Source of the DNA: the human T2T-CHM13v2.0 reference genome, Homo sapiens | Reading direction: 5' to 3' (one strand) | NCBI RefSeq assembly: GCF_009914755.1 | Contig: NC_060946.1 | Length of the DNA: 64,000 nt | Part shown: piece after piece, positions 38,449 to 55,560 of the stretch | Position numbering within the stretch: position 1 is the stretch's first letter | Layout of the letters: each line of letters begins with the position of its first letter | Translations under genes and position numbers: made by a program | The notes under the pieces: generated by a model | What the model was told of the DNA's origin: nothing | The model's input: only the letters and a program-made list of their open reading frames with translations | Databases searched by the model: none

Positions 38449-38677
38449 AAACCATCAAGCCACAGTAATAAAAGGACTTGGTTTGTCTCACTGTGGCCCA
38501 AGGAGAAGTAAGGTTAATAGAGACAAGACATTTCAGGGCTTCAAGACTCTTCCCTTAAAGGTGGGATCAGTTAGGGCTCCCCAGTGGGAGGTACCCGGTC
38601 TGCCAGTGTGGTAGGAGGAAAGCCAGGGGGAGTCAGGAGACTGGGTCCCAGCTGGAGAAGGTGCCCCTCTGACAGTT
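38449..38677 (+). repeat. Long inverted repeat 1, left arm (donor)
   Basis: Reverse complement of 39487-39717; about 14 substitutions and 3 small indels. Confidence 0.96.
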
Positions 38678-39486
38678 CTGTGTCCCTTTCACAGTCCCTG
38701 GATAGATAAGGCTAGAAAAGTGGCCACAGAAGTAGCTTGGGTGGAGGGATTTTTGTTTGTTTTGCATGAACAGCAGGAACCATTCAGCTCCACTGCTGAA
38801 TGGCACATTCCAACAGGTTCATTAATTAAAAACAAAAACAACAACACGATTCTCCATCGCACTTGGCTTTTACCATTCCAGCCAGTATGGACAAGGAGGC
38901 CCCTTCTTCTACCTTTTGTCATAGTCTACTCCTGGGTGGCCTTGAGAGGCAGGGTGGAGTGGTGGAAAGGCAATGGGGAGGGCAGATCTGAGCTCCACTC
39001 CTTCCTCTGGGGCTTGTTGGCTGTGTGTGCCTAGGCACATATGGGCTACCTTTGAGCTTTAGTTTTCTTATTTATACAAGGGGAATAACAATTTGTACCA
39101 TCTTGGCCTGTTTTATCTATATTTTAAAAGCTACAAGTATATGAATACATTCTATGTCCATGTATGTATCTCTCTGTATATCTATGATATATCCATTTCT
39201 ATTTATCATTTATCATCTATCTATCTATCTCTCTATCTAAAATCGGAGAAGAGTAAAATCCTTTCTGATTACTTTTTCTAACTCTAGTCCCTTCTCCAAA
39301 TCCTTTTCTTCCTATACATTTACATACATAGGTATCCATAGCAAATTTATAGTAGTTTTTCCCTTAGAAACATGAATAGTAGAACATTAAACATCATGGA
39401 ATACCACATAATACCACATATAGTATTCTGCTTGTTTCCCATTCAACAATGCGTACTAGAGATCTTTCTACTTAATATATATATAA

Positions 39487-39717
39487 AACTGTCAGAGGAG
39501 CACCTTCTCCAGCTGGGACCCAGTCTCCTGACTGCCCCCCTGGCTTTCCTCCCACCACATTGGCAGACTGGGTAGCTCCCCCTGGGGACCCCTAACTCAT
39601 CCCCACCTTTAAGGGAAGAGTCTTGGAACCTTGAAATGTCTTGTCTCTATTAACTTTACTTCTCCCTGGCCACAGTGAGACAAACCAAGTCCTTTTATTA
39701 CTGTGGATTGATGGTTT
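39487..39717 (-). repeat. Long inverted repeat 1, right arm (inserted copy)
   Basis: Reverse complement of 38449-38677; flanked on both sides by (AT)n. Confidence 0.96.
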
Positions 39718-39722
39718 GGAGG

Positions 39723-39875
39723 ATATATATATATAAATATATAATATATAAATATATAATTTATATATAATATATAAATATATAATATATAAATATATAT
39801 TATATATAATATATATTATATATAATATATATATATTATATTTACATATATATTATATATATAATATATATATTT
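39723..39875. repeat. Interrupted (TA)n tract, about 150 bp and nearly all A/T
   Basis: Read directly from the sequence. Confidence 0.95.
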
Positions 39876-41681
39876 CTTTTATGTATTTCATGAGGTTATA
39901 ATTTTAAACAGCTAATAAGTATAGAGTGATTACTATGTGCCAGGCATTATTCTAAGTCATTAACTTACATTAACTCATTTAATTCTCTCAGTTTTATGAG
40001 GGAGGTGTGCTATTGTCATCTCCATTTTACAGCTGAGGAAACTGAGGCTTAGAAAAATGAGGTAACTCGTTTAAGGTTATACTGCTAGCAAGGAATACAG
40101 CCTGTATTTAAGCCCCTTCACCCTGGCTCTAAAATATATTTAACAACTATACTATAGGTCACATTATACCATATCATATTATATATACTACTACATACTC
40201 TTATATTATTATAATTATATAATATGCATTTTCAATTTTAATAGTTCCTGCCAATTTGGCCTCCACAGTGGCTGTGTTAACACAGTTCTTTTCATATATG
40301 CAACATGAGGGGATGGAGGAATGTTAGAGCCCTGTGCTTAAGAGACTCCCATGCTTCTCTCAAATAGAAAAACAATTTATAATTTTTATTGACTTACTGA
40401 GTGTTTTTTTTCCTTCTTTTTGTCTCTTTGAAAGGGAGCAAAATTAGGGCCACGAAGATCAAGTTAATGGGAGTATTTTCATAGGGAGAGGAAGGCTGCA
40501 ATGCCAGGAAAGCTGTGACCCTTGACTTGTTGCATGCTGGAGTAATTCGGTTGAAGATAGCTTTATGTATTTATTTTGCTTTCAGAATAAGCAGTGGACC
40601 ATTTATTACACCAAGTTGTTTGACTTTGAGGACTTACATGGACTCAGGTTCAAAGGTATATGTGGCTGTGTTTTGAACACACATACACAGGGTTTTGCTT
40701 TCTGACTCAAAGCTGTCCGCTGGCCAGGCTCATGGTGGCAGCAAGGGCACTCACTCATCTGTCTCCCTTCTTGTTGCCTATGGATGGCACTTGGGTGAGA
40801 GCAGTGGGATGGTCACAAGGAGGAGGATGGACTGCCGAGAGGGAGGCTGGGTGGACCCCAGCCAAGAAGGACGCTGGGGTCTCATTATTATGGGAGCTAG
40901 AAGGCCTGGTTTAGGAAAGAATTCCTGTTCTGATGAAAGCTCTTCAGTGGACTCTTAGGATAAAGTATCATCAAATGGCTTTTACAAGGGCCAGTGTGGA
41001 CCCTGCCTACCTCATCCTCATAGTCTCATCACTGGTCTGTCCTGCTCCAGCTGTTCATACTCTGTCTCTCTGGCTCTTGGCCCATGACACCCCCTCGGTT
41101 TTGAACAGTCCTCATTAACTTCTCATTCTCTAGGTCTCCTTTGGTTCCTTTCCCTGATCACTCCTTGGCATTGGTACAGACGAACAGTCATAAACCTTGC
41201 CCATATTTTAAGCATGCTGAAAAACACCATCTCTAGTAAAACCCAAATTCTCCAAAGCTGCATGGGAAACTCCCAGAGGGGATCATTCCTGCGCTGGGAG
41301 AAAGAACTTAGGGCTGCGTGCCACCCAGAGGGATAAACCTAACCCACTTTAGAGGGTAAGCACCCACTATGCTCTCTGCATTACTTGATAAGTCTAGTCC
41401 TGTCTTCTGGTGGACATGATACCCTAGCACCCTCCCAGAGAAGAAAGTGGAGATTTCTAAATGCCAACCCTGCAGGAGATCACAAACATAATACTGTAAT
41501 TTTCATAGTAAGTTTGGTGCCCTTACTATGTGCCAGGCACTGTACCAAGCTCCTTACTTGCCTATCAGTCATCCCAGCTGCCTGATGAGCTGTCTCAGGC
41601 TAGGGAAGCCAAATGGCTTGCCCAAGCTCACACCACTTGCAACCTATACTTGCTTAGCCTATCTCCAAAACCTGTGTTTCC

Positions 41682-53839: not shown

Positions 53840-53995
53840 TGAAGATCTGCACTTGCTCTTCTGCTAACCGCTAAGGTGTCATCAGTGCTGTGCTATTAAA
53901 ATCAGAAGTCAAAGAAGGTGGGTGTGGCCCTCATAGCCAGAGTTGATAGAAATGGATTTATTAATATAATGGATGGTCCATAGAAAGGTGAATGA
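53840..53995 (+). repeat. Dispersed direct duplication, copy 1 (donor)
   Basis: 153/156 identical to 55145-55300. Confidence 0.98.
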
Positions 53996-54354
53996 CCTGG
54001 TTAACAGACAGGGATGGAGTGGAGACCTGTCTGCCCTGGTCTTCAGGCTGGTTCTGAAATCACAGAATTAAGATGATCTCAGCTGAGGGGCAAGGCAAAT
54101 CGGATGGAAGAGCGGAGGCCCAGAGAAGCGAAGCCCTTTCCCAATATCTCACAGCAGGTGGGGAGTGGGGGAAAGCAGCTTCCAGGGGGTGGATTCCTGA
54201 ACCAGGTATTTGTCACTGTCCCACGTAGCTCCTCTTGTCACCATATGTCCCACTCAGTGGAGGGATACTTCCTGCAAGACAAAGAGGGCCTCATGGTTCC
54301 CCCGTCACTCACTGCCTTCCACTCCCTGCTTCTGATTATTCTGTAAGAAGTTGA

Positions 54355-54656
54355 GGCCGAGCGCAGTGGCTCACGCCTGTAATCTCAGCACTTTGGGAGG
54401 CCGAGGCAGGCGGATCACCTGAGGTCGGGAGTTCGAGACCAGCCTGACCAACATGGAGAAACCCCATCTCTACTAAAAATACAAAATTAGCCGGGCGTGG
54501 TGGCGCATGCCTGTAATCCCAGCTACTCGGGAGGCTGAGGCAGGAGAATTGCTTGAACCTGGGAGGCAGAGGTTGCAATGAGCCGAGATCGCACCATTGC
54601 ACTCCAGCCTGGGCAACAAGAGCAAAACTCCATCTCAAAAAAAAAAAAAAAAAAAA
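54355..54656 (+). mobile_element. Alu (AluSp-like)
   Basis: ACATGGAGAAACCCC diagnostic; TSD AAGAAGTTG. Confidence 0.95.
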
Positions 54657-54974
54657 GAAGTTGGAGCTCTGTCTGTCTGTCCTTTCCCCAACTCCCCATC
54701 TCCGAGGCTGGCTCCTGTGCCCAAAGTCTTCCTCGCTGTCTCTGGGTATGTTCACAGGGTATGATCACATTTCCCCTGCATGCCCTGCGTGGGATGTGCT
54801 CCATGTGCTGATGCCTCTGGGGATTTCCAGATGATGTCCCTGGACTTGGCAGAGCAGTGTGGGGAATCTGGGACTTGCACTTCCTATCCTCATGGAGTCT
54901 GGTCTCTCACCTTCACAGGCCACTAAGAGGAAAGGCAACTGGTGTGACGTCTGGGGAGGGAAGTATGTTCCTGT

Positions 54975-55560
54975 GCATCGAAAGCCTCAAACATGTGCAT
55001 ACACTTTAACTAGCAATCTTACTTCTAGAAATTTAGTCCTAAGAAATAACTAGGTAATGGAGTCCATTGCTACATTGTTTATCCCCAAATTAATCTAAAT
55101 GTCTATTGCAAATAGACTGCTTAGATTATGGTGCGTTCATACAGTGAAGATCTGCACTTCCTCTTCTGCTAACCGCTAAGGTGTCATCAGTGCTGTGCTA
55201 TTAAAATCAGAAGTCAAAGGAGGTGGGTGTGGCCCTCATAGCCAGAGTTGATAGAAATGGATTTATTAATATAATGGATGGTCCAAAGAAAGGTGAATGA
55301 AAGAGTCATAAAAGATGTTGAGGTAGTTCTCTATTGATGCCAGAATAGCCCTATGGTGCACTTTTGAGTAACAGAAGCCAATTTGTTAAAAACAACAACA
55401 ACAACAACAAAAAAAAACAGAGAGAGAGAGATGAATGTGCATCCAGATGCTTAGAGAAGAGTCTGAATGTCTGTATACTAAATATCAACACTAGTTACTC
55501 TGCGCTGTGGGATTTTGGATGATTTTAATTTGATCCAGTGTTTTCTGGAAAATAAAATTT
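54975..55560 (+). mobile_element. L1ME-like fragment, interrupted by the duplicated segment 55145-55300
   Basis: TAGCAATCTTACTTCTAGAAATTTAGTCCTAAG...ATTATGGT..CATACA. Confidence 0.65.
55145..55300 (+). repeat. Dispersed direct duplication, copy 2 (inside an L1ME-like fragment)
   Basis: 153/156 identical to 53840-53995. Confidence 0.98.

What the first reader, a model, noticed from the sequence alone, without database searches (positions are those of the whole stretch)
38449..55300. Cluster of locally templated insertions: nearby DNA copied into old TEs, three times within 17 kb of TIMP3 intron 1
Seen: three 156-283 bp segments of non-Alu sequence each have a second copy 0.8-1.5 kb downstream, two inverted and one direct, at ~92%, 95% and 98% identity. 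Each downstream copy interrupts an older element (L1ME-like/(AT)n, MIR, L1ME-like) and has no poly-A tail or TSD, so it is not a retrotransposition product. Two older dispersed copies (229/2265, 52632/54699) and a micro-triplication (14021) fit the same pattern. Established: templated insertions arise from template switching or synthesis-dependent end joining during break repair. Inference: the different identities suggest separate events over a long period, i.e. a persistent break/repair hotspot, possibly linked to opposed TIMP3/SYN3 transcription. TE annotation would not report this pattern.
Basis: partly seen in the sequence, partly recalled or inferred. Interest (0 to 1): 0.85.

Follow-up and report, generated by a model that had tools for sequence, protein, structure and literature searches.

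The report
Small repair-made local duplications, TIMP3 intron
Three short stretches of unique DNA in the first intron of TIMP3 were each copied once to a spot about a kilobase away, which is an already described by-product of DNA break repair, and their closeness to one another is only mildly unusual.

Summary
Three sharp-edged pairs exist: A 38449-38677 / 39487-39717 (inverted, 92-94%), B 41682-41968 / 43483-43769 (inverted, 95.1%) and C 53837-53995 / 55142-55300 (direct, 97.5%). Each segment has exactly two places in the whole T2T genome, so none belongs to a dispersed repeat family. None has a poly-A tail or a target-site duplication. A fourth, much older two-place pair lies at 52630-52730 / 54697-54794.

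The kind is already in print. These pairs fit the "repair-mediated duplications" of Pace et al. 2009 (PMC2671141): 824 human cases, donor under 5 kb away, typical distance about 1.2 kb, mean length 162 bp, no poly-A, attributed to synthesis-dependent strand annealing.

Only copy A2 visibly interrupts a repeat, an (AT)n tract. B2's flanks are not two halves of one MIR. The three divergences do not differ significantly (P=0.25). The local excess is nominal: 4 strict pairs in 60 kb against 3 in 300 kb of background (P=0.018, post hoc, small sample). The transcription link could not be tested. This is an ordinary member of a known class, and a possible modest hotspot remains unproven.

The parts
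38449..38677 (+). Pair A, copy 1 (229 nt). Inferred donor; unique sequence on both sides.
   Evidence: Flank searches found no dispersed repeat next to it.
39487..39717 (-). Pair A, copy 2 (231 nt), inverted. It is the acceptor, inserted inside an (AT)n tract. It differs from copy 1 by 14 substitutions in 228 sites plus 3 indels.
39474..39486 (.). Short AT-repeat remnant on the left side of A2. The same 13-nt AT word recurs on the far side of the insert.
39718..39722 (+). GGAGG, a 5-nt filler-like stretch between A2 and the (AT)n tract. The reading as filler is an inference, because no empty site was available.
39723..39873 (.). (AT)n tract, about 81 units with interruptions. It can form a cruciform and is the likely break site for event A.
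   Evidence: TRF, period 2, 81 copies, 77% matches.
41682..41968 (+). Pair B, copy 1 (287 nt). Which copy is donor and which is acceptor was not determined.
43483..43769 (-). Pair B, copy 2 (287 nt), inverted. 14 substitutions in 287 sites, no indel, 1514 nt from copy 1.
41506..41648 (+). MIR-like fragment 34 nt to the left of B1.
43346..43474 (-). MIR-like fragment (core region) 8 nt to the left of B2. It is in minus orientation relative to the in-window reference copy (reference positions about 221 down to 67).
43815..43951 (+). Weak MIR-like fragment 45 nt to the right of B2, in plus orientation (reference positions about 107 to 252). It is not the continuation of the left fragment.
   Evidence: three hits with consistent offsets, best E 5e-4 in a 7-kb target set; the two flanks do not form a palindrome.
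53837..53995 (+). Pair C, copy 1 (159 nt). Probable donor: 950 nt around it has no other genomic match.
55142..55300 (+). Pair C, copy 2 (159 nt), direct. 4 substitutions in 159 sites, 1146 nt from copy 1. Probable acceptor.
52630..52730 (+). Pair D, copy 1 (about 101 nt), an old pair. It ends at a (TG)n tract.
54697..54794 (+). Pair D, copy 2 (about 98 nt), direct. 25 substitutions in 98 sites. Only two places in the genome.

Best explanation
These are three ordinary repair-mediated local duplications, plus one much older one. In each case a break in the germline DNA of a primate ancestor was mended by synthesis-dependent strand annealing or a related template switch. A free 3' end invaded a stretch 0.8-1.5 kb away on the same or the sister/homologous molecule, in either orientation. 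It copied 159-287 nt and was then rejoined, leaving a second copy with sharp ends, no poly-A and no target-site duplication.

What is shown: the two-copy anatomy, the orientations, the sharp ends, the absence of retrotransposition marks, and the position of A2 inside an (AT)n tract.

What is inferred: the repair pathway (from the published class), the donor/acceptor polarity of C (probable) and B (unknown), and the ages. The ages are about 29, 23 and 12 million years from K2P distances at 2.2e-9 per year pairwise, with wide errors.

The closeness of the events is most simply a chance or mildly enriched grouping. The region is rich in break-prone simple repeats and old unique DNA, and it lived through a primate-wide period when such events were frequent.
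For: - Each segment has two places only in the genome (pair D).
- Ends are sharp, and no extended weak similarity lies beyond them.
- There is no poly-A/T tail and no target-site duplication, around single copies or around whole pairs.
- Sizes of 159-287 nt and spacers of 809-1514 nt fall in the centre of the published distributions: acceptor mean 162 nt, maximum 619, donor under 5 kb, modal distance about 1.2 kb, none of 39 inspected proximal cases with poly-A (PMC2671141).
- A2 splits an (AT)n tract, with a 5-nt filler-like stretch at one junction.
- Divergences of 2.5-6.1% fit the catarrhine/hominid age range in which that paper places most events.
- The same kind of two-place pair turned up in random chr22 DNA: L004, L015 and L022.
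Against: - No orthologous empty site could be examined, so polarity, junction microhomology, deletions and filler are not demonstrated.
- The defining criterion of the Pace pipeline, an interrupted TE with collinear halves, is not met for B2 and is unproven for C2.
- The density here is about 6.7 times the background: 4 strict pairs in 60 kb against 3 in 300 kb (P=0.018). All three large young pairs (at least 150 nt and at least 90% identity) are in the window, against 0 strict and 1 ambiguous in the background. A purely chance grouping is therefore not comfortable.
- At the published density of 0.62 per Mb of TE DNA, a 17-kb triplet would be expected only about 0.1 times per genome.
Confidence: 0.75

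Rival explanations
1. Persistent germline break/repair hotspot. TIMP3 intron 1 suffers recurrent breaks over tens of millions of years, from non-B simple repeats and/or head-on TIMP3/SYN3 transcription. Each break is occasionally mended with a local templated insertion.
For: - There are 4 strict two-place pairs in 60 kb of window against 3 in 300 kb of background (P=0.018).
- There are 3 large young pairs in the window against 0-1 in the background (P=0.005-0.016).
- All 4 lie in the part of the window transcribed on both strands, which is 46% of the window (my arithmetic: 0.46^4 = 0.045).
- A2 sits in an (AT)n tract. The interval also holds (TG)18, (AC)23, a 300-nt (GAGA)n tract, (TG)32 and an 84-nt tandem duplication.
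- Pair D shows that an event long before the others happened in the same 3 kb as C.
- A template-switch micro-triplication lies at 14018-14107.
Against: - The statistics are post hoc and the background is small. 200 of its 300 kb come from chr22 20.1-24.5 Mb.
- The divergences of A, B and C are homogeneous (P=0.25), so 'long period' rests on pair D alone.
- If the true density is 3-10 pairs per Mb, as my background suggests, 16-400 such 17-kb triplets are expected by chance genome-wide.
- Pace et al. saw no tendency of the 824 events to cluster and no link to gene density.
- The window is Alu-poor and rich in old MIR-like copies, which makes unique old pairs easier to see.
- The TIMP1/SYN1 and TIMP4/SYN2 comparison could not be run.
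Confidence: 0.2
2. One complex event or a short burst. A, B and C arose together, or within a short time, from a single replication-based multi-template-switch repair (FoSTeS/MMBIR-like) affecting one chromatid.
For: Substitution levels are statistically indistinguishable (14/228, 14/287, 4/159; chi-square P=0.25; with indels P=0.10). All three lie within 17 kb.
Against: - The three acceptors are 4-12 kb apart, each with its own donor 1-2 kb away. That is the pattern of independent simple events in Pace et al.
- The point estimates differ 2.4-fold.
- A carries 3 indels, while B and C carry none.
- No chimeric junctions were seen.
Confidence: 0.08
3. RNA-templated patches. Pieces of TIMP3 or SYN3 intronic RNA were reverse-transcribed and captured at breaks.
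For: Both strands are transcribed here (annotation given with the finding), so either orientation could come from an RNA.
Against: - There are no poly-A tails or target-site duplications.
- Donors lie only 0.8-1.5 kb from acceptors. In Pace et al., marks of retrotransposition were confined to distant or interchromosomal copies and were absent in 39 of 39 proximal ones.
Confidence: 0.04
4. Remnants of larger, older duplications or of a low-copy mobile element. Possibilities are B as terminal inverted repeats, C as LTR-like direct repeats, or gene-converted cores of old duplicates.
For: Inverted arms 1.5 kb apart and direct repeats 1.1 kb apart superficially resemble the termini of an element.
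Against: - There is no other copy anywhere in the genome.
- No target-site duplication flanks the whole pairs; only 4-5 nt chance words were found.
- No weak similarity extends beyond the segment ends.
- Rfam and Pfam gave nothing.
Confidence: 0.03

Closest known systems
[quoted passage not shown]
   Same: - A single extra copy of unique DNA.
- Donor under 5 kb away, about 1.2 kb typical.
- Length 50-619 nt, mean 162.
- An opposite-orientation example (the ACSBG2 exon) is reported, so inverted copies occur.
- No poly-A.
- Mostly primate-age events.
- Many cases lie in introns (295 of 824 acceptors).
   Different: - That catalogue requires the acceptor to split an annotated TE into collinear halves. 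Here A2 splits a simple repeat, B2's flanks fail that test and C2 is unproven, so these cases may be absent from their list.
- Their Table S1 is a supplement I could not open.
- They report no clustering; here 3-4 events lie in 17 kb.
'Doublets', short paired local duplications (Thomas et al. 2004, PNAS 101:10349; known to me only through its citation and description in PMC2671141, because the paper itself was not held)
   Same: Abundant short local duplicates that are not tandem and not TE-derived, suggested to arise from imperfect break repair.
   Different: As described by Pace et al., those surveys concerned identical or near-identical duplicons under 100 bp. The present copies are 159-287 nt long and 2.5-6% diverged.
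Short-range template-switch mutations in great apes (Walker et al. 2021, PLoS Genet 17:e1009221, PMC7954356; passages read)
   Same: They create nearby inverted copies. Event sites are enriched in AT-rich and poly(dA:dT) DNA. The micro-triplication at 14018-14107 fits this class.
   Different: Those events act within tens to hundreds of nucleotides and replace or insert short stretches. Pairs A and B are 230-290 nt long and lie 0.8-1.5 kb from their partner, and pair C is direct.
Segmental duplications and tandem duplications
   Same: Low-copy duplicated DNA.
   Different: Segmental duplications are at least 1 kb long and usually far apart. Tandem duplications abut their source. Here the lengths are under 300 nt and the spacers are 809-1514 nt.

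Membership tests
Repair-mediated duplication (Pace et al. 2009) | The inserted sequence is at least 50 bp long and is found at exactly one other place in the genome. | tested here: met
   two places each (2 of 2 candidates scored). One search shows the same for pair D. Sensitivity control: searches recovered old repeat families at 67-86% identity.
Repair-mediated duplication (Pace et al. 2009) | Donor and acceptor lie on the same chromosome, more than 50 bp and less than 5 kb apart. | tested here: met
   Spacers are 809, 1514 and 1146 nt. Pair D has a spacer of about 1966-2006 nt.
Repair-mediated duplication (Pace et al. 2009) | No poly-A/T tract of 5 nt or more at an end of the insertion and no retrotransposition-type target-site duplication. 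| tested here: met
   The only flanking repeat is an AT-repeat word at A2, which lies inside (AT)n. B1's right end abuts a T-run in AT-rich DNA, on the wrong side for a tail.
Repair-mediated duplication (Pace et al. 2009) | The acceptor splits one annotated TE into two fragments of the same name and orientation, collinear in the consensus within 30 bp. | tested here: not met
   - A2 splits a simple (AT)n repeat, not a TE.
- B2's flanks are MIR-like pieces in opposite orientation with overlapping element coordinates.
- C2 is inconclusive.
- This is a detection criterion of their pipeline rather than a property of the mechanism. No TE library was available here.
Repair-mediated duplication (Pace et al. 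2009) | Junction signatures relative to the empty site: microhomology, filler, small deletions. | not testable with these tools
   No other primate genome was available. The only hint is a 5-nt filler-like GGAGG at A2.
Dispersed transposable-element family | Many related copies across the genome. | tested here: not met
   Searches found no third copy. Searches found no hits to the segments in a 364-kb local set.
Retrocopy / L1-mediated insertion | A 3' poly-A tail and a flanking target-site duplication. | tested here: not met
Segmental duplication | At least 1 kb long at 90% identity or more. | tested here: not met
   Lengths are 159-287 nt, with no extension beyond the ends.
Recurrent break/repair hotspot | Event density significantly above a genome-wide null, events of demonstrably different ages, and an independent break signal. 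| tested here: inconclusive
   - Density: nominal P=0.018 against 300 kb of background.
- Ages: A, B and C are not distinguishable (P=0.25); only pair D is clearly older.
- Break maps were not available.

The most novel reading that the evidence does not exclude
TIMP3 intron 1 is a long-lived germline break-and-repair hotspot. Break-prone simple repeats ((AT)n, (GAGA)n, (TG)n), possibly aggravated by head-on TIMP3/SYN3 transcription, have repeatedly provoked local templated insertions from before the primate radiation (pair D) to about 12 million years ago (pair C). As a by-product, the two inverted insertions gave the TIMP3 and SYN3 pre-mRNAs two long, near-perfect non-Alu hairpins: 229 and 287 bp, with duplex energies of -426 and -536 kcal/mol. 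These could be ADAR substrates.
Probability: 0.2. Interest if true: 0.5.

Novelty: new member of a known kind. Interest (0 to 1): 0.25.

Why it matters
As it stands, little. The pairs are further examples of a described by-product of break repair, sitting in an intron with no annotated element inside them. The only RefSeq functional element in the window is an H3K4me1 enhancer at 52806-53307, which none of the copies overlaps.

There are two modest points of value.

1. The cases show that TE-anchored catalogues of such duplications miss events in simple repeats and in unrecognisable old DNA. My small background sample gave about 10 two-place pairs per Mb (3 in 300 kb), against the published 0.62 per Mb of TE DNA.
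2. If a genome-wide null showed the grouping to be significant, the locus would be a natural example of a recurrent germline break site tied to non-B DNA.

The inverted pairs also create long intronic double-stranded RNA in a disease gene. That is worth a look in RNA-editing data, but it is not surprising.

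Tried and rejected
- **Dispersed-repeat origin.** Rejected by genome-wide searches.
- **Larger decayed duplications with conserved cores.** Rejected: nhmmer between the neighbourhoods found only the segments themselves and pair D.
- **Mobile element with terminal repeats.** Rejected: no third copy and no target-site duplication.
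- **Known RNA genes.** Rfam gave 0 matches in the whole window.
- **L1 remnants around C2.** Of 21 ORFs of at least 45 aa listed, I scanned 10 against Pfam and found nothing meaningful. This does not exclude a non-coding L1 3' end.
- **'B2 splits a MIR'.** I used one well-kept in-window MIR-like copy (39880-40140) as a ruler, with the 27 MIR-like sequences (26 copies matched in my 364-kb set plus the ruler itself) as targets, taken as they stand. The left flank is minus-oriented (reference positions about 221 to 67). The right flank is weakly plus-oriented (about 107 to 252). They are not two halves, and the flanks do not form a palindrome.
- **Empty-site test through paralogous TE copies.** This failed. 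blastn and nhmmer of the flanks found no locus where left and right flanks are adjacent, and the loci needed could not be fetched.
- **Meiotic-hotspot motif.** There were 8 matches against 2.9 expected in the window, none at a junction, and the motif is evolutionarily short-lived, so I dropped it.
- **First background pass.** With lenient alignment scoring it missed pair A and some background pairs. I replaced it with a uniform pipeline (735 raw pairs, 13 kept with at most 2 places in the local set).
  - Background pairs dropped after genome-wide checks: L007 (LCR22/chr5 multi-copy repeat) and L017 (satellite-like).
  - Kept as ambiguous: L016 (7 places, inside segmental duplications), and L005 and L013 (97% local pairs of pieces of old repeat families).
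  - L014 (1.6 kb, 81%) was not checked.
- **Literature.** Searches found no report of a duplication cluster in TIMP3 intron 1. One search found 9 papers using the term 'repair-mediated duplication', and none is about hotspots judging from titles and abstract starts. Table S1 of PMC2671141 (a closed supplement) may list some of these loci.

Full report
**What is there.**

Self-comparison of the window confirms three discrete local pairs.

| Pair | Copy 1 | Copy 2 | Orientation | Spacer | Differences |
|---|---|---|---|---|---|
| A | 38449-38677 | 39487-39717 | inverted | 809 nt | 14 substitutions in 228 sites, 3 indels |
| B | 41682-41968 | 43483-43769 | inverted | 1514 nt | 14 in 287, no indel |
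| C | 53837-53995 | 55142-55300 | direct | 1146 nt | 4 in 159, no indel |

- Alignments with flanks show abrupt loss of similarity at both ends, give or take about 15 nt.
- A sensitive comparison of the 1.7-2.3 kb neighbourhoods finds nothing more, except a fourth, old direct pair D at 52630-52730 / 54697-54794 with 25 substitutions in 98 sites.

**They are not repeats in the usual sense.**

- Searching the whole T2T genome with each segment returns only the segment and its partner (pair D).
- The tool warns that counts are lower bounds and that closed regions are hidden.
- The same tool found 119 and 412 first-look candidates, at 67-86% identity, for two background segments that do belong to old repeat families. 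A dispersed family would therefore have shown.
- There is no poly-A/T tail at the ends of the downstream copies.
- There is no direct repeat of 6 nt or more around single copies, except an AT-repeat word at A2. Only 4-5 nt chance words flank the whole pairs.
- Rfam finds nothing in the window.

**Context of the copies.**

- A2 lies inside an (AT)n tract: 13 nt of AT repeat on one side, then a 5-nt GGAGG and 151 nt of (AT)n on the other. A2 is therefore the inserted copy and A1 the template.
- C1 sits in 950 nt with no other genomic match.
- C2 has a dispersed-repeat piece 92 nt to its left: 54977-55049, at least 4 loci at 80-81% identity. Its right flank carries short matches that coincide with an (AAC)n microsatellite. 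C2 is the probable acceptor, but this is not proven.
- B2 has a MIR-like core 8-100 nt to its left and a weak MIR-like piece to its right. The two are in opposite orientation and cover overlapping parts of the element, so they are not halves of one MIR. They also do not form a palindrome.
- B1 has a MIR-like piece on its left only. The polarity of B is undetermined.
- No L1 protein remnant was seen near C2, in 10 of 21 ORF pieces scanned.

**What it is.**

The anatomy matches a class published in 2009. Pace et al. (PMC2671141; Results and first part of Discussion read) describe 824 human 'repair-mediated duplications':

- a single extra copy of unique DNA;
- donor under 5 kb away, with a typical distance of about 1.2 kb;
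- acceptor mean 162 nt, median 147, maximum 619;
- none of 39 inspected proximal cases with a poly-A tail;
- junctions with microhomology, filler or small deletions.

They attribute these to synthesis-dependent strand annealing at double-strand breaks, mostly in primate history and with a rate that fell in hominids. They link the class to the earlier 'doublets' of Thomas et al. 2004, which I could not open. I therefore read A, B, C and D as events of this kind. The pathway itself is inferred from that literature and not shown here.

**Dating.**

- K2P distances divided by the 2.2e-9 per year pairwise rate used in that paper give about 29 (A), 23 (B) and 12 (C) million years. Pair D comes out near or above 100 million years.
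- The counts for A, B and C are statistically homogeneous: chi-square 2.74, P=0.25; with indel events P=0.10; all pairwise Fisher tests P>0.13.
- The claim of separate events over a long period therefore rests on point estimates, and on pair D.

**Is it a hotspot?**

L001-L020 all come from chr22 20.1-24.5 Mb. L021-L030 are spread over 25-48.6 Mb (refusals).
- A uniform pipeline required at least 50 nt, at least 80% identity, copies at least 50 nt apart within one 10-kb piece, and at most 2 places in the 364-kb local set. It kept 13 of 735 raw pairs: 8 in 30 background pieces and 5 in 6 window pieces.
- Genome-wide checks left 3 strict two-place pairs in the background: L004, L015 and L022.
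- Three background pairs are ambiguous (L005, L013, L016), one was excluded (L017) and one was left unchecked (L014).
- The window has 4 strict pairs (A-D). Its fifth pair, 229/2265, partly matches 5 other loci.
- Given one sixth of the sequence, P(at least 4 of 7)=0.018. With the ambiguous pairs included, P(at least 5 of 11)=0.025.
- For large young pairs only, the window has 3 against 0 strict or 1 ambiguous, giving P=0.005-0.016.
- These are nominal, post hoc values from a small and partly atypical sample.
- At the published density (0.62 per Mb of TE DNA), a 17-kb triplet is expected about 0.1 times per genome. At the 3-10 per Mb that my sample suggests, 16-400 times.
- Pace et al. saw no clustering and no relation to gene density.
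- The window is also unusual in ways that help detection. It is 11% masked against 22-25% in the background. It holds 16 MIR-like copies in 64 kb against 11 in 300 kb.

**Features that could favour breaks.**

- The interval holds (TG)18, (AT)~81, (AC)23, a roughly 300-nt (GT)12+(GAGA)75 tract, (TG)32 and an 84-nt tandem duplication.
- Only A2 is demonstrably in one of these repeats.
- A PRDM9-type motif is somewhat over-represented in the window (8 against 2.9 expected) but does not occur at the junctions.

**Consequences.**

- As RNA on either strand, the arms of A and B would pair over 229 and 287 bp, with duplex energies of -426 and -536 kcal/mol. These are long non-Alu intronic hairpins in the TIMP3 and SYN3 pre-mRNAs.
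- Whether they are edited or matter was not tested.
- None of the copies overlaps the one RefSeq functional element in the window, an enhancer at 52806-53307.

**Verdict.**

- The mechanism is right in kind but already described.
- The element-interruption, age-spread and hotspot claims are weak or untested.
- No paper in the held library reports this locus. The closed supplement of PMC2671141 might.

Noticed in passing
window 14018-14107: A forward-inverted-forward micro-triplication of a 19-28 nt unit lies next to a (TAT)11 tract. The direct copies are 14018-14053 and 14069-14104 (94%), with an inverted copy at 14052-14070. This is a footprint typical of short-range template switching.
   Followed up: partly
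window 52747-52916: A tandem duplication of an 84-nt unit (2.0 copies, 93% matches) sits in (TG)n-rich DNA. It overlaps the RefSeq 'H3K4me1 hESC enhancer' at 52806-53307 and lies just right of copy D1.
   Followed up: no
window 46534-46854: (GT)12 is followed by about 300 nt of (GAGA)n, a purine/pyrimidine mirror tract. (AC)23 lies at 45917-45962. These are sequences able to form non-B DNA in the middle of the interval.
   Followed up: no
whole window: The window is Alu-poor and rich in old SINE-like copies. 11% is masked against 22-25% in 300 kb of chr22 background. It holds 16 MIR-like copies in 64 kb against 11 in 300 kb, using one in-window copy as the query.
   Followed up: partly
window 229-387 and 2265-2420: A direct pair at 80.5% over 159 nt. 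Part of it (query 22-91) also matches 5 other loci at 74-83%. It is probably two copies of an old dispersed repeat and not a local duplication.
   Followed up: partly
L013:6297-6561 / 7026-7290 (chr22:22525297-22526290); L005:9172-9276 / 9869-9973 (chr22:21023172-21023973): These are background examples of 97%-identical local pairs whose sequence is a piece of an old repeat family (119 and 412 first-look candidates at 67-91%). They are either local duplication of a TE piece or, for the direct L005 pair, two ends of one element.
   Followed up: partly
L004:1025-1177 / 3776-3930; L015:1615-1690 / 2512-2587; L022:3571-3645 / 4140-4214: Three two-place-only local pairs turned up in random chr22 DNA: 153 nt at 80% inverted, 76 nt at 83% direct, and 75 nt at 92% inverted. 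Such pairs may be about ten per Mb, well above the published TE-anchored count.
   Followed up: partly
window, 8 sites (nearest to the pairs: 40307-40319 and 52997-53009): The degenerate 13-mer associated with human meiotic hotspots occurs 8 times against 2.9 expected; 1 of 100 shuffles reached 8. None is at a duplication junction.
   Followed up: no
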